In this document: positions 1 to 3,830 of the stretch, in pieces
Numbering within the stretch: position 1 is the stretch's first letter
Layout of the letters: each line of letters begins with the position of its first letter
DNA from: Gemmatimonadota bacterium
Lineage (GTDB): Bacteria; Gemmatimonadota; Gemmatimonadetes; JACCXV01; JAHWKZ01
DNA length: 64,000 bases
Direction of reading: 5' to 3'
NCBI GenBank assembly: GCA_039588915.1
Contig: JBDGYV010000009.1
Location: 517-64,516 of the forward strand
Program-made: the position numbers and the translations under genes
The notes under the pieces: model-generated
Databases searched by the model: none
What the model was told of the DNA's origin: nothing
The model's input: only the letters and a program-made list of their open reading frames with translations

Positions 1-676
1 CCTCCACGACGGCTTCGACCTTGGGGTGGCTGGCGCTTCCCTTGGTCGAGAATGACAGCAGGGCGACCCGTGGCTCCCCACCGGTCAGCGCGTGATGCGT
101 GGCCGCTGAGGCGATGGCGATGTCGGCCAGCTGGTCTGGCGTTGGTTCGGGCACGACACCGCAGTCGCCGAAAGTGAACGCTCCCGCTTCGCCGATCAAA
201 AGGAAAACCGACGAGATCGTCCGGATGCCGGTCGCCGGCCCGATCACGCGGATTGCCGCGCGTACCGTGTCAGCGGTCGTCGATAGGTTCCCTGATACGC
301 ACGCGTCAGCCTCACCGCGCTGGACGAGATAGGCGCCAAACATGAGCGGGTTCTCGAGGGCGGTTCGTGCTTCATCGGTGGTCAGCTCGCGACCGCGGCT
401 CGCCTGCAGGGCCCGGAAGGCGTCGGCATAGGTATCGAGCCGGGGCGATTGCGCCGGTGCTATGGTGGTCGTGCCCTCCAGGCCGACGCCGGCCTTTTCG
501 GCCGCCTCGCGGATCGCGTAGCCGCCACCGAGTAGTGTGACCTCGGCAATGTTGAGCTCGCGAATCGTTTGGGCAGCTTTTACCGCCCGTGGATCGGCGC
601 CGTCGGCGAGCACGATTCGGTGATCGCCGGCTGCCGCCCGGCTTCTCAAGTCCGCGATTACTTGAGCCGGGTTCAC
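1..676 (-). CDS. pta: phosphate acetyltransferase (PTA_PTB family, Pta/EutD type), N-terminal ~225 aa; 3' end runs off the window
   Basis: Not in the ORF track because it is open at the window edge. My own minus-strand translation from GTG at 676 gives [36 protein letters not shown]...[39 protein letters not shown]...[23 protein letters not shown]...[15 protein letters not shown], typical of Pta/EutD. GTGA start/stop overlap with the upstream ORF. Confidence 0.8.
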
Positions 677-1002
677 TGACCCCAACGGGCTAGGACTCGC
701 TCCGCGATCTGACGCACCTGGGTCGCATCCGCTTCTGGCACCAGACCGCGGACGCGTTCGACGACGCGCTCCACATCGCCTGGATTACAGGTCGGTACGT
801 GAAGCTCGGAAACTGGAGAGGTGGGTGATTGTTTGCTCGCTTGGTCGACCAGCTCGATGCCATGGCGGTCAGCTTCTTCCTTGGCCAACGGCGTCACTAT
901 CGCGTGCTCGGGGACGACCAGCTGAATCCCCCCATCACGATGTACCGCGCGCACGTCGTCGGCCGAGACGACGGGCCGGTTTCCACGCCGCTGCACGGTC
1001 AC
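673..1002 (-). CDS. small (109 aa) BMC-locus protein of unknown function; N-terminal [40 protein letters not shown] module, Ser/Pro linker, helical C-terminus ending ...RVLARWGQ
   Basis: This is the 3' part of track ORF 673..1470. I trimmed the start to GTG at 1002, which forms a GTGA overlap with the ParA stop (999-1001). The ORF stop in turn overlaps the pta GTG. The N-terminal motif resembles, from memory only, short modules in hypothetical proteins of eut/pdu-type loci. Confidence 0.55.
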
Positions 1003-1814
1003 GACGCCTGCTTGACGACCGCCTCTTCGCGCCGTGCGGCGAGGCGTTCGGCGATCTCGGCGGCCACGCTGTAATAGGCTGCCGCCCCAGCCGAGTTGGC
1101 GTTGATCTCGAACAGTAGCCGCCCTTCGCGGGCGGCTTCGGCGAGCGCGATGTTGATCGGAATCGGTTCGCGGAACAGCATCTCGCCCCACTTCTCTTCC
1201 ATCGCTGTCACGCATTCCCGACCCACGCGGGTCCGCCGATCGTAAAGCGTCGCCAGATAGCCCAATAACTCCAGCCGCGGATTGAGCCGCCTTCGAACCT
1301 TGTCGATGAGGTCGAGGGTGCGTGGGACAGCGTTCAATGCGAACGGGTGGGTCTGGACGGGGATCACAACGGTGTCGGCCAACCGGAGTGCGTTGACCGT
1401 GTACAGCGACAGCGCCGGCGGAACGTCGATGATCGCCATTCGGTATGGGAGCTCCGGCCCGGCCTCCCAAGCGTCCGCTAAGAGCCCCTCGCGACCCGAG
1501 ACATTGGCTAGCTCGGATTCCATTTGGCCCAAGCTCTCGTGAGCCGGGACACAGAATAGCCGCTCGTAGCGGGTAGGCATCGTCGCGCGTGCCAATCCAC
1601 CGACCGGGTCGATCAACACGTCGGTGACGGTGACGTCGAGGTCGTCCGGGTCGATCCCCAGATGACGGGTCGCTGAAGCTTGGGGGTCGAGGTCGATCAG
1701 GACCGTCTCGATGCCGGTTTCAGCGAAGGCGCCGGCAATGTGGACCGCCGAAGTGGTCTTCCCTACCCCGCCCTTTGCGTTGGCAAACACGAGCGCATAC
1801 GGTCGCCGCATCAT
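999..1814 (-). CDS. ParA/Soj-type deviant Walker A ATPase (271 aa) embedded in the BMC operon
   Basis: The N-terminus ALVFANAKGGVGKTTSAVHIAGAF is a KGGxGKT deviant Walker A with the signature lysine. Also VLIDLDPQASAT, IIDVPPALSLYTVNALRLADTVVIPVQ and the overall Soj/ParA layout. No ParB-like gene is adjacent. The start overlaps the BMC-H stop (TAATG). Confidence 0.9.
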   Translation of the reverse strand: MMRRPYALVFANAKGGVGKTTSAVHIAGAFAETGIETVLIDLDPQASATRHLGIDPDDLDVTVTDVLIDPVGGLARATMPTRYERLFCVPAHESLGQMESELANVSGREGLLADAWEAGPELPYRMAIIDVPPALSLYTVNALRLADTVVIPVQTHPFALNAVPRTLDLIDKVRRRLNPRLELLGYLATLYDRRTRVGRECVTAMEEKWGEMLFREPIPINIALAEAAREGRLLFEINANSAGAAAYYSVAAEIAERLAARREEAVVKQAS

Positions 1815-2404
1815 TAGCTAGCCGGGTAGTAGCGGCTCTCGACCTTTTCTATCGCGCCCCGATCGAGCAGCTGCTTGACGGGACCGATCAGTCGACGCCA
1901 CTCGGTGCCAAGCGCCGCCCCGAGGTCGGGCAGCGATATCCCCTGCTCCCCTGCACGCCGGATCGCCGTCAGACACCGCGCTTCGAGGTCGGTGACCGAC
2001 ACCGGTTGGGTGGCGGGCTTTGTCGTAACCTCGGTTGGCGGAGCTACGGTCGGTTTGGCAGGCGCGGCCGGCTCCGGACTCGGCTTGGAACGCTGTCCGA
2101 TCGGGTACGTCCCGATGGCTGGGCTTTCTGGCAAGACGTCGATCAGCTGGTCGGTGGCTTGATGCGGTCGAGGGATGACATGCACGCTGACCAACTCGCC
2201 GACCTTTGCCGCGGCTACGGCACCTGCATCGGTGGCGGCCTTAACCGCTGCCACGTCGCCCCGGACGAGAATCGTCACCAGGCCGGCTTGTGAATACTCG
2301 CGCTTGACGAATTCGACTGGTGCCGCCTTCGACATCGCGTCGGCGGCTTCTGTGGCACCGACAAAACCGCGGGTCTCGATCAGACCGAGGGCGTTACCGG
2401 CCAT
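1814..2404 (-). CDS. BMC-H shell protein with Pro-rich linker and C-terminal winged-helix/HTH-like domain (EutK-like architecture)
   Basis: Residues 1-85 (MAGNALGLIETRGFVGATEAADAMSKAA...LVTILVRGDVAAVKAATDAG...VHVIPRPH) form a canonical BMC (PduA/EutM-type) domain. A PSPEPAAPAKPTVAPPTEVTTKPATQP linker follows. The last ~60 aa (LEARCLTAIRRAGEQGISLPDLGAALGTEWRRLIGPVKQLLDRGAIEKVESRYY) look like a wHTH. Confidence 0.85.
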   Translation of the reverse strand: MAGNALGLIETRGFVGATEAADAMSKAAPVEFVKREYSQAGLVTILVRGDVAAVKAATDAGAVAAAKVGELVSVHVIPRPHQATDQLIDVLPESPAIGTYPIGQRSKPSPEPAAPAKPTVAPPTEVTTKPATQPVSVTDLEARCLTAIRRAGEQGISLPDLGAALGTEWRRLIGPVKQLLDRGAIEKVESRYYPAS

Positions 2405-2406
2405 CG

Positions 2407-3063
2407 TCAGTACCGCACCGGGTCGGCGTATACCGACGTGACCGCTGCCTCGAACGCTTCACACGCCGCGCGGCAGTCGGCCTCGGTTCCGGTTACCAGT
2501 GCGCCACCCATGTTCGTGGGGGTCGGCGGCTCGATCCACTCTCCCACCCGCACATCAGCTGTCTTGAGCGCCTGATCGAGTCCAAAGACGGCCTCCAGCG
2601 GGGTCGCCTTGAGGTAGCCAAGCGCGTCACCGCGTGCGATACCAGCCCTTTCGGACAGATAGCTACCGGTTTGAGCGACCAAATGCGCCAAATACGGCCA
2701 GCGCCCCTCATCGTCGGCCGACCGGTAGTTGACACGCGACTCGAGGTGAACGATCGTAGCGTCCATTCCTGCTTCGACTTCCCCGATTCGATCGCCGGCC
2801 AATATTACCAGGGTTTCGGAGGTCGGTAGTTCCAAGCTTGACCGCGGGCCGCTGCGGTAGAACGTGCGCGCGAACACGACATCGACCTCGGCCTTCTTGG
2901 TGGCCTCGTCGGCCGCCACGTACGTGGGGTCGTCTTGGTCGACGGTGAGAAACCCGATCGCGGCGTGCGACGGCCTCAGCCCCAGCGCGTCGACCAGCGA
3001 GGGTGCGACGTTTGGGACTGTACGGACCGCTAAAACACGCGGCGCGAGGGTCGTGGTCACCAT
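2407..3063 (-). CDS. BMC-T shell protein, EutL/PduB-type (tandem permuted BMC domains, 218 aa)
   Basis: Collinear with my memory of E. coli EutL: ...GFLTVDQDDPTYVAADEATKKAEVDVVFAR..., ...EVEAGMDATIVHLES..., ...LAHLVAQTGSYLSERAGIARGDALGYLKATPLEAVFGLDQALKTADV..., and a similar length (~219 aa). Confidence 0.85.
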   Translation of the reverse strand: MVTTTLAPRVLAVRTVPNVAPSLVDALGLRPSHAAIGFLTVDQDDPTYVAADEATKKAEVDVVFARTFYRSGPRSSLELPTSETLVILAGDRIGEVEAGMDATIVHLESRVNYRSADDEGRWPYLAHLVAQTGSYLSERAGIARGDALGYLKATPLEAVFGLDQALKTADVRVGEWIEPPTPTNMGGALVTGTEADCRAACEAFEAAVTSVYADPVRY

Positions 3064-3107: not shown

Positions 3108-3136
3108 AGTCTAGGAGCGCGGTCTAGACAGGTCAA
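3108..3136 (-). promoter_or_regulatory. candidate sigma70-like promoter of the BMC operon (TTGACC-N17-TAGACT) with GTCTAGAC palindrome in the spacer
   Basis: The minus strand reads cgcTTGACCtgtctagaccgcgctccTAGACTcccc, ~45 nt upstream of the BMC-T ATG (3063). It lies in the only sizeable non-coding gap (3064-3149) ahead of the operon. Confidence 0.4.
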
Positions 3137-3149
3137 GCGGGCCGAGGGT

Positions 3150-3830
3150 CTAGAAGCGCATCTCGGCGCGGGTCCATTGGACGACTCCGGAGCCGCCGCG
3201 TTGGGCGGGCACGTAGAGCATCTGCTTGGCGGCCGCCAGCGCTAGCGTGTCGAGCAGCGCGAAGCGACTCCCTTTCTCGATCCTGACCTCTCCAACCGAA
3301 CCGTCGGCGAGCACTTCGACCAGGAGGTGAACCGACGCGCCGCGGACCCGCTTCTTGTCGAGGTCATCCGGGATCCTTGGAACGACGAGGTGCAGGGGCC
3401 GCGGCGGACTGACGACCCCACCGCCCCGACCGGCAGCCGGGTCCGTCGTGCCTTCGCCGTCCGGCTCGCCGTCATCGCGACCTTCACCGTCGCTCGGAGC
3501 AGCGTCCGGCTCGGACACCGTCTCCTCGATCGGAGCCTCGGCGATCTCGATTTCGACCACCTCTTCGACCGGCTCGGGATCGGGCTTTGTCTCGGCGACT
3601 TCCTCGGATGGCGGCTGAAGCTCAACTACCTCAAGCTCGCTACCAGGCCCACCCGGGATCACAAACACGTACGGCGACGGAATCAACGCCTCGTGAAGTC
3701 GATCGGCGATCACCCTCGGCAGCGCGAGCAGGATGAACGCGTGGATTCCGATTGCTACCAGCAGGCTCCAGCGCCGGACTCGATCGTACGAATCCCGCCA
3801 TACCGTGTTCTTGCTCGAGAGGACTCGCAT
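3150..3830 (-). CDS. TonB-family energy transducer (226 aa)
   Basis: N-terminal TM helix with conserved His (LLVAIGIHAFILLAL), a Pro/Glu-rich spacer (PPSEEVAETKPDPEPVEEV...), and a C-terminal TonB_C-like fold (VHLLVEVLADGSVGEVRIEKGSRFALLDTLALAAAKQMLYVPA). AGGAG lies ~10 nt upstream of the ATG. Confidence 0.75.
   Translation of the reverse strand: MRVLSSKNTVWRDSYDRVRRWSLLVAIGIHAFILLALPRVIADRLHEALIPSPYVFVIPGGPGSELEVVELQPPSEEVAETKPDPEPVEEVVEIEIAEAPIEETVSEPDAAPSDGEGRDDGEPDGEGTTDPAAGRGGGVVSPPRPLHLVVPRIPDDLDKKRVRGASVHLLVEVLADGSVGEVRIEKGSRFALLDTLALAAAKQMLYVPAQRGGSGVVQWTRAEMRF

What the first reader, a model, noticed from the sequence alone, without database searches (positions are those of the whole stretch)
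1814..2404. BMC-H shell protein fused to a Pro-rich linker and winged-helix domain, immediately upstream of ParA
The architecture is a BMC domain, then a ~50-aa PSPEPAAPAKP... linker, then a ~60-aa HTH-like domain. This matches E. coli EutK, whose C-terminal helix-turn-helix domain is structurally nucleic-acid-binding-like but has no assigned function. Here the fusion protein is encoded directly before, and overlapping, a ParA gene. ParA systems need a cargo-bound adaptor and the nucleoid as matrix. A shell hexamer displaying a flexible, tethered DNA- or ParA-binding domain could be that adaptor built into the organelle surface. This would also suggest a function for the EutK C-terminal domain in general.
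Basis: partly seen in the sequence, partly recalled or inferred. Interest (0 to 1): 0.7.

Follow-up and report, generated by a model that had tools for sequence, protein, structure and literature searches.

The report
Microcompartment shell protein paired with ParA
A Gemmatimonadota microcompartment shell protein carries a flexibly tethered winged-helix domain and is always encoded immediately before a ParA ATPase, so it is a good candidate for the handle by which cells space and inherit these organelles; the same domain also occurs on gas-vesicle proteins.

Summary
ORF 1814-2404 (-) encodes a BMC-H domain (residues 1-91), a disordered Pro-rich linker (92-135) and a confidently predicted winged helix (136-196). 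Its stop overlaps the start of a Soj-type ParA (TAATG).

The gene sits in a translationally coupled operon: EutL-like BMC-T, the fusion, ParA, a stand-alone EutQ N-terminal domain, Pta, BMC-H, AldDH. This order is kept in 25 of 25 Gemmatimonadota species genomes.

- The domain is EutK-like in architecture and in gene position after EutL. It fails the EutK_C family threshold and is near neutral rather than basic.
- All ParA co-occurrence comes from one lineage.
- A profile search shows the winged helix belongs to an unannotated family. That family is found mostly on proteins encoded between gvpA and gvpN in gas-vesicle clusters, and on membrane-anchored proteins, usually without a ParA.

A 2025 Salmonella study already showed that EutK is needed for Eut microcompartment partitioning and proposed a ParB-like role.

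Best reading (about 0.45): a shell-integrated, outward-facing adaptor linking the organelle to nucleoid-bound ParA. I rate it a new variant of a known kind.

The parts
3108..3136 (-). Predicted sigma-70-type promoter of the BMC operon: -35 TTGACC (3136-3131), 17-nt spacer, -10 TAGACT (3113-3108).
   Evidence: Coordinates are. TTGAC(C/G) followed about 17 nt later by TAGACT, TAGAAT, TAGGTT or TACAAT is kept upstream of the BMC-T gene in nearly all related loci.
2407..3063 (-). EutL-type permuted tandem-BMC shell trimer (BMC-T), 218 aa; first gene of the operon.
   Evidence: Pfam BMC matches in two stretches, E 2.7e-16. NCBIfam EutL PRK15405 scores 241 bits against a cut-off of 198. Present in all 24 Gemmatimonadota loci whose sequence reaches upstream of the fusion (L013 starts at the fusion).
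2132..2404 (-). BMC-H domain of the fusion protein (residues 1-91). It carries the K-A-A and PRPH inter-hexamer edge motifs.
   Evidence: Pfam PF00936 E 9.8e-25. AF2 pLDDT is about 90. The sequence reads ...AMSKAAPVE... and ...IPRPHQ....
2000..2131 (-). Disordered linker (residues 92-135). It begins with a conserved short motif, PG(D/N)R(R/K)IGTYPI(R/G/A)H in the family and PESPAIGTYPIGQ in the window. A hypervariable stretch follows.
   Evidence: pLDDT is below 50 with no secondary structure. The motif is found in 113 of 115 homologues. After it, the linker is 17-78 aa long and family-wide is 17.5% Ala, 17.5% Gly, 16.9% Arg and 14.9% Pro. The alignment shows hypervariable length.
1817..1999 (-). 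C-terminal winged-helix domain (residues 136-196). It belongs to an unannotated family with the core motif G-I-x-L-x-(D/E)-(I/L)-G-x-x-L-x-x-(D/E)-W-R-x-L-I-x-x-x-K-x-L-(L/V)-D-x-x-x-(I/V)-(E/D)-K-(I/V)-(E/D)-x-x-Y-Y-P.
   Evidence: AF2 pLDDT 89.5 alone and above 90 in the full-length model. Foldseek matches are all winged helices. The profile search finds 214 representative proteins with E <= 1e-3. Identity to the gas-vesicle-cluster copies is 42-49%.
999..1814 (-). Orphan Soj-type ParA ATPase, 271 aa, deviant Walker A KGGVGKT. Its start overlaps the fusion's stop codon (TAATG).
   Evidence: Pfam AAA_31 E 2.3e-38 and CbiA E 1.2e-19. Closest solved structures are 8RAY (4.5e-38) and Thermus Soj 1WCV (2.1e-36); McdA 6NON scores only 2.6e-12. 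No ParB-domain gene appears in the flanks. Present in 25 of 25 loci.
673..1002 (-). 109-aa stand-alone EutQ N-terminal-domain homologue (probable shell-cargo linker). Its GTG start overlaps the ParA stop (GTGA).
   Evidence: NCBIfam EutQ PRK15457 E 1e-7 over profile positions 4-98. hhalign of 17 orthologues against E. coli EutQ gives 93.6%, E 2e-7, residues 10-103 against 3-97. The function of EutQ(1-99) is taken from PMC12487888.
1..676 (-). 5' part of a Pta-type phosphotransacylase (EutD-like). It runs off the window edge; the GTG start overlaps the preceding stop.
   Evidence: Translation. PF01515 PTA_PTB is recorded on the full 337-aa gene in the source contigs. On longer contigs a 106-aa BMC-H and an acylating AldDH follow.

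Best explanation
The gene encodes a minor hexameric shell protein of a Gemmatimonadota metabolosome. Its core set is eut-like: EutL-type trimer, this protein, EutQ-N-like linker, Pta, major BMC-H and aldehyde dehydrogenase.

The BMC domain has normal edge motifs, so the protein should tile into shell facets. In BMC-H proteins the C-terminus emerges on the concave face, which points to the cytosol in solved shells. Each hexamer would therefore display six winged-helix domains on basic or Pro-rich disordered tethers of about 40-100 residues.

The protein is co-transcribed and translationally coupled with an orphan Soj-type ParA. I propose it is the cargo-side partner of that ParA. ParA-ATP dimers coat the nucleoid. 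The tethered module (conserved RR-IGTYPI motif, basic linker, winged helix) engages ParA and/or the DNA beneath it and stimulates ParA turnover. Microcompartments would then be spaced along the nucleoid and shared at division, as McdB does for carboxysomes and ParB does for plasmids. Here the adaptor is fused into the shell instead of being a separate protein.

What is shown: the architecture, the fold, the operon structure, the synteny and the domain family.
What is inferred: the outward display, and the idea that ParA positions this organelle.
What is unresolved: whether the direct ligand is ParA, DNA or both.
For: - Architecture and fold.
- One-base overlap with ParA, plus GTGA overlaps down the operon and a conserved promoter only upstream of the BMC-T gene.
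- The order fusion-ParA-EutQN-Pta is kept in 25 of 25 species-level Gemmatimonadota genomes, while protein identity falls to about 59% (fusion) and 69% (ParA).
- Neither ParA nor the domain occurs in 40 BMC loci of other phyla.
- ParA is a canonical Soj-like ATPase with no ParB gene nearby, as in other cargo-positioning orphan ParAs.
- The neighbouring 109-aa protein already has a different, well-supported role as an EutQ N-terminal shell-cargo linker: and PMC12487888. It also lacks the conserved C-terminal aromatic residue of McdB.
- The linker carries a conserved short motif in 113 of 115 homologues and is 17% Arg family-wide. This resembles the basic flexible tails through which ParA partners act: together with the statement on basic N-termini in PMC11321042.
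- Basic residues on the recognition helix (R, K) and wing (K) are conserved.
- Independent genetics: deleting eutK, the analogous BMC-H-plus-HTH protein, leaves Eut BMCs static at the poles, and the authors propose a ParB-like role: PMC12487888.
- ParA-like genes have been noted in BMC loci before: PMC4207490 and PMC8359340.
- BMC-H termini lie on the concave face: PMC5534457. That the concave face points outward is from my own knowledge of the Haliangium shell structure (Sutter et al. 2017).
Against: - The co-occurrence comes from a single lineage, so it counts as one evolutionary event.
- The winged-helix family occurs mainly on gas-vesicle-cluster proteins and membrane-anchored proteins that have no adjacent Soj-type ParA. 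Its conserved surface therefore probably binds something more general than this ParA.
- The domain is near neutral (mean net charge 0.04, pI 7.1, n = 123). This is unlike EutK's basic domain and is not what a strong non-specific DNA binder would look like.
- Known ParA partners act through short basic peptides, not through a folded winged helix.
- No parS-like or operator-like conserved repeats were found in or next to the operon.
- No binding, localisation or ATPase data exist for any member.
- The window's own linker is a Pro/Ala/Thr/Lys variant and much less basic than the family norm.
Confidence: 0.45

Rival explanations
1. The winged helix is a general surface-display module that does not depend on ParA. 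It would tether large protein or membrane surfaces (BMC shell, gas vesicle, membrane) to a shared ligand. Candidates are the nucleoid, an RNA, or another copy of itself, the last of which would cluster organelles. In this reading ParA works alongside it, through another contact or simply as an anti-aggregation system.
For: - Of 149 representative clusters carrying the domain, none except the query's own cluster has a BMC domain.
- 63 have the N-terminal region typical of proteins encoded between gvpA and gvpN. Others have one or several transmembrane helices, or an Asp23 domain.
- All 5 context look-ups (7 loci) place the homologues between gvpA and gvpN. Five of those seven loci contain no ParA-like gene at all.
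- The same positions are conserved in the BMC and gas-vesicle versions (W-R-x-L-I, K, E-K, Y-Y-P), at 42-49% identity, which points to a common ligand.
- The layout 'anchor, flexible linker, winged helix' recurs in every context.
Against: - It does not explain why a ParA is inserted, translationally coupled, right after this gene in every BMC locus that has the domain.
- The near-neutral or acidic net charge argues against simple non-specific DNA binding.
- There is no evidence for dimerisation.
Confidence: 0.25
2. The ParA adaptor is the 109-aa protein encoded immediately downstream of ParA. It would be a McdB-like factor whose basic N-terminus contacts ParA and whose helices bind the shell. 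The winged-helix fusion would have a separate role.
For: - Its position directly after ParA, with a GTGA overlap, matches the usual mcdA-mcdB order: and PMC8359340.
- Its N-terminus is basic ([10 protein letters not shown]...; R-rich in other clades).
- Its EutQ-N homology implies direct shell binding through H1/H2: and PMC12487888.
- In the window's clade it ends in ...RWGQ, with a Trp near the C-terminus as in McdB.
- It is present in 25 of 25 loci.
Against: - The C-terminal Trp is absent in most orthologues, which end ...ERLGG or ...EQGGA. The defining invariant aromatic residue of McdB is therefore not met.
- The whole length aligns to EutQ 3-97, whose demonstrated role is bridging shell and cargo.
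- The same N-terminal segment occurs in BMC loci of other phyla that have no ParA.
Confidence: 0.1
3. The winged helix is a sequence-specific transcription-factor domain that couples shell assembly to gene expression. Free hexamers would bind an operator, and incorporation into shells would titrate them away. PhaR works this way on PHB granules (own knowledge).
For: - The nearest structural and profile neighbours are bacterial repressors: MarR, Rrf2/CymR, ArsR, DtxR, IclR, and MarR_2 at E 3.8e-6 for the best member.
- A near-neutral charge is normal for sequence-specific winged-helix factors.
- Basic residues on the recognition helix and wing are conserved.
Against: - Apart from the -35 and -10 boxes, no conserved palindrome or repeat was found in the promoter region across 24 loci. 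None was found inside the operon either.
- TCTAGAC copies are at chance level and are not conserved.
- The domain would stay exposed after assembly, so sequestration is not obvious.
- The idea does not explain the ParA.
Confidence: 0.1
4. The ParA neighbourhood has no functional meaning for the organelle. ParA would serve another cargo, such as the chromosome, and merely ride in this operon.
For: The ParA is an ordinary Soj-like sequence with no BMC-specific feature detectable by sequence.
Against: - It lies between shell genes and core-enzyme genes, with overlapping stop and start codons on both sides.
- That position is kept in 25 species genomes while the flanks vary. TonB is present or absent, and an S9 peptidase is inserted in some loci.
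- No ParB gene lies nearby.
Confidence: 0.05

Closest known systems
EutK (E. coli / Salmonella ethanolamine-utilisation shell protein; C-terminal domain Pfam PF16365, PDB 3I71)
   Same: - Both have a BMC-H domain, a linker and a roughly 60-aa helix-turn-helix or winged-helix domain at the C-terminus.
- Both are encoded directly after the EutL-type trimer gene.
- BLASTP aligns the two proteins end to end, including a shared ...SRY in the wing.
- The family HMM aligns in register to EutK 109-161.
- EutK is required for subcellular partitioning of Eut BMCs and has been proposed to act like ParB: PMC12487888.
   Different: - The C-terminal domain fails the EutK_C family test: best E 0.0065 in 5 of 28 members, hhalign 49%, 20% identity.
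- It is near neutral, while EutK's domain has pI about 10.
- The BMC part keeps PRPH and scores as EutM-like. E. coli EutK has GRPD at that position.
- The eut operon has no ParA.
McdA/McdB carboxysome positioning system
   Same: - An orphan ParA-type ATPase is encoded in or next to a BMC locus and is expected to use the nucleoid as its matrix.
- A cargo-bound partner is required.
- The partner region here is disordered and basic in most of the family.
- The fusion ends in an invariant YYP(A/V)(G/S), so it has an aromatic residue within the last 4-5 positions. This was reported for McdB-like proteins of non-carboxysome BMCs: PMC8359340 and PMC11321042.
   Different: - The ATPase is much closer to Soj than to McdA: 1WCV 2e-36 against 6NON 2.6e-12.
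- There is no separate disordered McdB.
- The candidate adaptor is covalently part of the shell and carries a folded winged helix.
- The Tyr residues sit in a well-ordered beta-strand (pLDDT above 90), not in a free tail.
Type Ib ParB proteins such as ParG and omega (own knowledge): a small DNA-binding domain preceded by a flexible basic tail that stimulates ParA
   Same: The layout 'flexible basic tail plus small DNA-binding-type fold', encoded next to a small ParA with KGGxxGK(T/S), is the same.
   Different: - The fold is a winged helix, not a ribbon-helix-helix.
- The gene order is partner then ParA.
- No centromere repeats were found.
- The module is fused to the cargo, so no centromere would be needed.
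- There is no ParB Pfam domain.
PhaF / PhaM of polyhydroxyalkanoate granules (own knowledge): a granule-surface domain fused to a DNA-binding tail, which ties granules to the nucleoid for segregation
   Same: The logic is the same: an organelle-surface anchor is joined to a nucleic-acid-binding-type module by a flexible or low-complexity segment. The Ala/Pro/Lys-rich linker in the window is reminiscent of AKP/PAKKA tails.
   Different: There is no sequence relationship. PhaF and PhaM work without a dedicated ParA, and their DNA-binding parts are strongly basic, unlike this domain.
Proteins encoded between gvpA and gvpN in gas-vesicle clusters (the position GvpC holds in known clusters, own knowledge; found here, not described in the searched literature)
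   Same: - They carry the same C-terminal winged-helix family: profile E down to about 1e-11 against 1.8 billion proteins and 42-49% identity.
- They share the layout: surface-binding part, Pro/Ala/Glu-rich linker, then winged helix.
   Different: - The anchor is an amphipathic, apolipoprotein-like repeat region rather than a BMC domain.
- No Soj-type ParA is adjacent. Two loci (L072 and L073), nearly identical copies of one cluster, have a 665-670-aa double ArsA-like ATPase further along.
PduK (propanediol BMC-H with a C-terminal extension)
   Same: It is a BMC-H with a C-terminal extension that has been implicated in the subcellular location of its BMC, as cited in PMC12487888.
   Different: According to that paper the extension is disordered and is not a winged helix. 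No ParA link is reported.

Membership tests
BMC-H shell protein (Pfam PF00936) | A single BMC domain above the Pfam gathering score. | tested here: met
   86.8 bits against a cut-off of 24.5, E 9.8e-25, residues 5-80. The AF2 BMC fold has pLDDT about 90.
BMC-H shell protein (Pfam PF00936) | Inter-hexamer edge motifs K-A-A-x and (P/A)RPH, which allow tiling into facets (Sutter 2021). | tested here: met
   SKAAP and IPRPH are present. K26, A27, A28, R79 and P80 are invariant and H81 nearly invariant among 26 homologues.
EutK family | The C-terminal domain belongs to Pfam PF16365 (EutK_C). | tested here: not met
   No hit for the window protein at E <= 10. Only 5 of 28 family members hit, best E 0.0065. 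hhalign probability is 49%, the family HMM scores 4.9 bits on E. coli EutK, and identity is 20%.
EutK family | The whole protein reaches the NCBIfam EutK equivalog score (PRK15466). | tested here: not met
   82.2 bits against a cut-off of 218, and only the BMC part (residues 4-92) aligns. EutM scores higher.
EutK family | The gene is encoded immediately after the EutL-type trimer gene. | tested here: met
   In the window, BMC-T (2407-3063) is followed by the fusion (1814-2404). In E. coli, eutL is followed by eutK.
EutK family | A positively charged C-terminal domain (PMC12487888). | tested here: not met
   Mean net charge is 0.04 and pI 7.1 over 123 homologues. The E. coli EutK C-terminal domain has net charge +3 and pI 10.0.
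Winged helix-turn-helix fold | Three helices followed by a beta-hairpin wing, with structural matches to known winged helices. | tested here: met
   Elements are H10-27, H31-38, H42-54, E58-61 and E64-67. The top 50 Foldseek PDB matches are all winged helices with TMq up to 0.81, although E-values are only about 7e-3. Sub-threshold MarR_2 and B-block_TFIIIC hits occur in 14 and 23 of 28 members.
ParA/Soj partition ATPase | Deviant Walker A with the signature lysine, KGGxxGK(T/S), and a ParA/MinD-type P-loop domain. | tested here: met
   The sequence has AKGGVGKT. AAA_31 scores 132 bits and CbiA 70.9 bits, both above cut-off. Soj structures match at E 2e-36 to 4.5e-38.
ParABS system | An adjacent ParB (ParBc domain) and parS repeats. 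| tested here: not met
   No ParB-domain gene appears among the called genes in the 10 kb upstream of the fusion or in the operon genes after it, or among the ORFs examined downstream on longer contigs. No conserved repeats were found.
McdA (carboxysome ParA) | The closest relatives are McdA proteins. | tested here: not met
   McdA structures 6NON and 6NOO score only E 2.6e-12 over residues 7-175, while Soj-type proteins score 1e-36 or better over the full length.
McdB-like adaptor (tested on the 109-aa protein) | An invariant aromatic residue within the last 4-5 residues (PMC11321042, PMC8359340). | tested here: not met
   Trp is present only in the window's clade and two others. Most orthologues end ...ERLGG...EQGGA or similar.
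McdB-like adaptor (tested on the fusion's C-terminal module) | Adjacent to the ParA gene; a disordered basic region; a conserved C-terminal aromatic residue. | tested here: inconclusive
   The gene is adjacent and overlapping. The linker is disordered and 17% Arg family-wide. YY is invariant at positions -5 and -4. However, the Tyr residues lie in an ordered strand, the protein is itself a shell subunit, and there is no sequence similarity to McdB.
EutQ N-terminal shell-cargo linker (tested on the 109-aa protein) | Homology to EutQ residues 1-99 without the cupin domain. | tested here: met
   hhalign gives 93.6%, E 2e-7, over 92 columns, with residues 10-103 aligned to EutQ 3-97. NCBIfam EutQ gives E 1e-7. 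Pfam finds no cupin domain.
Functional ParA adaptor (works like ParB/McdB) | Binds ParA-ATP, stimulates its ATPase, and is required for cargo spacing. | not testable with these tools
   This needs biochemistry and imaging. The available structure tool does not do multimers and returns no contacts.

The most novel reading that the evidence does not exclude
The C-terminal winged helix would define a new, unannotated 'organelle handle' domain. Bacteria would display it on flexible tethers on the outside of unrelated large assemblies: microcompartment shells, gas vesicles and membrane anchors. Its job would be to couple them to the nucleoid or partition machinery. The Gemmatimonadota operon would then be the minimal complete version, a two-gene organelle-segregation module in which the ParB/McdB role is fused into the cargo shell and paired with its own ParA. 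The remote resemblance to EutK would mean that the partitioning role of EutK in enteric bacteria works by the same principle.
Probability: 0.25. Interest if true: 0.8.

Novelty: new variant of a known kind. Interest (0 to 1): 0.6.

Why it matters
How catabolic microcompartments are spaced and inherited is largely unknown. McdAB explains carboxysomes. For metabolosomes there are three strands so far:
- scattered McdA/McdB-like genes near some loci;
- the PduK and PduV observations;
- the 2025 finding that EutK is needed for Eut BMC partitioning, with no known ATPase partner.

This operon supplies a natural, conserved pairing of an EutK-style shell protein with a dedicated ParA. That makes the 'shell-integrated ParB-like adaptor' idea directly testable with two proteins.

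It also matters for engineering. A shell subunit that carries its own positioning handle would be a compact way to distribute synthetic microcompartments.

Separately, the same winged helix on gas-vesicle-cluster proteins and on membrane anchors points to a wider, undescribed family of surface-tethered winged helices. Its ligand is worth identifying.

Tried and rejected
1. McdB-like reading of the 109-aa gene. Rejected as the leading idea. Its C-terminal Trp is not conserved, and the whole protein is an EutQ N-terminal domain.
2. The TCTAGAC copies between TonB and the BMC-T gene as an operator or parS. Rejected. There are 5 matches in the window against 3.8 expected. Only the copy forming the -10 box is conserved across loci.
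3. A search for conserved direct or inverted repeats inside the operon in three divergent loci found only chance-level matches.
4. A single-sequence search of the C-terminal domain against PDB sequences gave nothing meaningful. The top hit was a designed repeat protein matched through one short helix.
5. A word-indexed homologue search with the 69-aa domain alone returned only 6 short fragments. The full-length search and the profile search were needed.
6. A search for other BMC genes or a second ParA in the 64-kb window by tblastn found none. EutN has no hit, so no pentamer gene is nearby and the locus is only part of a dispersed BMC gene set.
7. I tried to place the locus in the Sutter 2021 catalogue. 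MUF2 and FRAG8 are the Gemmatimonadetes types. [quoted passage not shown] No description matches this exact gene set, and ParA is not discussed.
8. I considered an AlphaFold run on a linker-joined ParA-plus-winged-helix chimera. I did not run it.


Full report
**1. What is in the sequence**

The minus-strand ORF 1814-2404 encodes 196 aa. Pfam places a BMC domain at residues 5-80 (E 9.8e-25).

The C-terminal 69 residues were modelled with a 28-sequence alignment. They fold with pLDDT 89.5 into three helices and a beta-hairpin. The full-length model gives three segments:
- a confident BMC domain at residues 1-88;
- residues 92-135 with pLDDT below 50 and no secondary structure;
- a confident winged helix at 137-194.

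The overall pTM is 0.47, so the two domains are independent beads on a string.

The top 50 Foldseek matches in the PDB are all winged helices. They include Rrf2/CymR (TMq 0.80), MarR, ArsR, DtxR-type repressors, the Z-alpha domains of ADAR1 and ZBP1 (0.78-0.81), ScpB and the N-terminal domains of O-methyltransferases. E-values are only about 7e-3, as expected for a 60-residue domain.

The fusion's stop codon shares one base with the ParA start (TAATG). The ParA/next-gene and next-gene/Pta junctions are GTGA overlaps. The upstream BMC-T gene ends 2 nt before the fusion starts.

**2. The operon**

Reading the minus strand, the genes are:
1. a predicted promoter, TTGACC-17 nt-TAGACT at 3136-3108;
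2. an EutL-type BMC-T, with NCBIfam EutL at 241 bits against a cut-off of 198;
3. the fusion;
4. a 271-aa ParA with KGGVGKT;
5. a 109-aa protein;
6. a Pta-type phosphotransacylase that runs off the window.

Source contigs and related genomes continue with a 106-aa BMC-H and an acylating aldehyde dehydrogenase. After that, genes switch strand to an unrelated ThiS-ThiF-rhodanese/JAB/PALP cluster.

The -35 and -10 pair is the only conserved element upstream of the BMC-T gene across 24 loci.

tblastn finds no pentamer (EutN-type) gene and no second ParA anywhere in the 64 kb. This is therefore one piece of a dispersed BMC gene set, as described for Gemmatimonadetes loci in the Sutter 2021 catalogue. 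[quoted passage not shown]

**3. The 109-aa protein**

This gene sits where mcdB would sit, and in the window it ends ...RWGQ, so I treated it as a rival adaptor.

The Trp is absent from most orthologues. A profile of 17 orthologues aligns over its whole length to E. coli EutQ residues 3-97 (hhalign 93.6%, E 2e-7).

In Salmonella, EutQ(1-99) is the bridge between shell and cargo. H1/H2 bind EutM/EutL and H3/H4 bind encapsulation peptides (PMC12487888). The first half of the domain also occurs in BMC loci of other phyla that have no ParA.

The 109-aa protein therefore has a good explanation that does not involve ParA.

**4. Conservation and co-occurrence**

More than 120 full-length homologues (54-98% identity) exist in metagenomes, and the ones that carry names are Gemmatimonadota.

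In a collection with one genome per species, 25 Gemmatimonadota loci encode the fusion. All 25 keep fusion-ParA-EutQN-Pta with gaps of at most about 10 nt, and every locus that reaches upstream also keeps the BMC-T gene. Meanwhile the flanks vary: TonB may be present or absent, and some loci have an S9 peptidase inserted.

Forty BMC loci from other phyla, recovered by the same scan, have neither the domain nor a ParA.

The association is therefore perfect but confined to one lineage. It shows long-term selection for the arrangement, not repeated independent pairing.

**5. The linker**

The linker varies greatly in length, from 17 to 78 aa after a conserved start. Family-wide it is rich in Ala, Gly, Arg and Pro, with 17% Arg. 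The window's clade has a Pro/Ala/Thr/Lys version.

The linker begins with a short conserved motif, PG(D/N)R(R/K)IGTYPI(R/G/A)H, present in 113 of 115 homologues. A conserved linear motif with flanking basic residues inside a disordered tail is what ParA-stimulating partners usually offer. This motif is a concrete candidate contact.

**6. Relation to EutK**

The architecture and the gene order match: the EutL-type gene comes first, then this gene, as with eutL then eutK in E. coli. BLASTP aligns the two proteins end to end, with a shared SRY in the wing.

The C-terminal domain nevertheless fails the family test:
- PF16365 is hit by 5 of 28 members, best E 0.0065.
- hhalign probability is 49%.
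- The family HMM scores 4.9 bits on EutK.
- Identity is 20%.

The domain is near neutral, whereas EutK's has pI 10. The BMC half retains PRPH and scores as EutM-like.

I therefore call the protein EutK-like in design, possibly a remote homologue, but not a demonstrated family member.

A 2025 study then showed that Eut BMCs in a eutK deletion stay at the poles and are static. It proposed that EutK acts like ParB or with ParB (PMC12487888). The E. coli eut operon has no ParA.

**7. The unexpected result**

I searched a profile of the winged helix against 1.84 billion representative proteins. It found 214 proteins at E <= 1e-3. Apart from the query's own cluster, none has a BMC domain.

In nearly all of them the domain is C-terminal. 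The other parts vary:
- 63 of 149 representatives share an N-terminal amphipathic region with occasional apolipoprotein-like Pfam hits.
- Others have one or several transmembrane helices, or an Asp23 domain.

All five context look-ups for the first group (seven loci) place the gene between gvpA and gvpN in gas-vesicle clusters, the slot classically occupied by gvpC. One source names one of them 'gas vesicle protein'.

These proteins also have a Pro/Ala/Glu-rich linker before the winged helix. They share 42-49% identity with the BMC version, including W-R-x-L-I, K, E-K and Y-Y-P.

I found no paper combining the terms gas vesicle, GvpC and winged helix. So the same tethered domain is displayed on two unrelated protein-shelled organelles and on membrane anchors.

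**8. Mechanism**

BMC-H termini lie on the concave face (PMC5534457). In solved shells that face points to the cytosol (own knowledge, Sutter 2017). The module should therefore be displayed outside the shell, six copies per hexamer.

The ParA is Soj-like (8RAY 4.5e-38, 1WCV 2e-36). It is far from McdA (2.6e-12) and has no ParB gene nearby. This is the pattern of cargo-positioning orphan ParAs.

The most economical reading is that this shell protein is the cargo-side partner, a ParB/McdB function built into the shell. The conserved motif and basic linker, and/or the winged helix, would contact nucleoid-bound ParA.

The gas-vesicle homologues, which usually lack a ParA, and the neutral charge argue that the winged helix itself recognises something more general than this ParA. 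That could be DNA in a specific way, RNA, itself or another common factor.

I give the adaptor model about 0.45. The 'general surface handle, ParA independent' model gets about 0.25. Smaller shares go to the 109-aa protein as adaptor, to an assembly-coupled transcription factor, and to an incidental ParA.

**9. Novelty and score**

Several things are already known:
- ParA-based BMC positioning (McdAB).
- ParA genes in BMC loci (PMC4207490; PMC8359340).
- BMC-H proteins with folded C-terminal domains 'analogous to EutK' (Sutter 2021 supplement).
- A partitioning role for EutK.

What I found in no searched paper:
- the conserved, translationally coupled pairing of such a shell protein with its own ParA;
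- the conserved linker motif;
- the shared winged-helix family linking microcompartments and gas vesicles.

I rate it a new variant of a known kind, with interest 0.6.

Noticed in passing
L072 7001-7951, L074 7001-7741, L075 7001-7741, L077 5364-6467, L078 7001-7783: Gas-vesicle gene clusters encode a 246-367-aa protein between gvpA and gvpN, the classical gvpC slot. It has an amphipathic N-terminal repeat region, a Pro/Ala/Glu linker, and the same C-terminal winged helix as the BMC fusion. It has no Pfam or NCBIfam family, and I found no paper on it.
   Followed up: partly
L072 11857-13854 and L073 11857-13869: One of these gas-vesicle clusters carries a 665-670-aa protein with two ArsA_ATPase domains (ParA/Get3 superfamily) between gvpO and gvpA/J. 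The other clusters examined lack it.
   Followed up: no
proteins P0136, P0140, P0179, P0204, P0227 (single TM helix); P0189, P0193, P0195, P0199, P0209 (several TM helices); P0219, P0240 (Asp23): The same winged helix also sits at the C-terminus of small membrane-anchored proteins and of Asp23-family proteins. P0127 (455 aa) contains three matched stretches of the domain. Their genomic contexts could not be looked up.
   Followed up: no
window 673-1002 (-): This is a stand-alone EutQ N-terminal domain without the cupin/acetate-kinase part. It suggests that the shell-cargo bridging function of EutQ exists as a separate small protein in non-eut metabolosomes. It has two conserved amphipathic C-terminal helices (VERVVERVR..., VRQIAERVL...).
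   Followed up: partly
L030 12873-14970; also L013, L020, L022, L023 between Pta and the second BMC-H: Some related loci have a roughly 2.3-kb insertion encoding an S9 prolyl-oligopeptidase inside the BMC operon. In L030 it is split over two overlapping ORFs, which suggests a frameshift or an assembly error.
   Followed up: partly
window 3108-3154: The intergenic region before the operon has three CTAG-containing near-repeats (TCTAGACC, TCTAGACC, CCTAGACT), which is unusual in this G+C-rich DNA. Only the last one, the predicted -10 box, is conserved in relatives. One of the others overlaps the TonB-like gene's stop codon.
   Followed up: yes
window 1-64000: tblastn finds no BMC pentamer (EutN/CcmL-type) gene and no signature aldehyde-producing enzyme next to the shell genes. 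The organelle's substrate and the rest of its shell genes must be encoded elsewhere in the genome.
   Followed up: partly
L011 14581-17534 (-): Directly after the BMC operon in a related genome lies a cluster on the opposite strand. It has a ThiS-ThiF-rhodanese fusion, a JAB deubiquitinase-like protein and a PLP-dependent enzyme, which resembles a sulfur-carrier-protein cysteine/thiocarboxylate pathway.
   Followed up: no
L001 13225-13536; L011 13142-14398: All five metagenome contigs carrying the identical fusion protein end within about 3 kb downstream of it. In L011 the aldehyde dehydrogenase ORF is short (Pfam match only to profile positions 29-292 of 461). This hints at an assembly-breaking or variable region at the end of the operon.
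   Followed up: no
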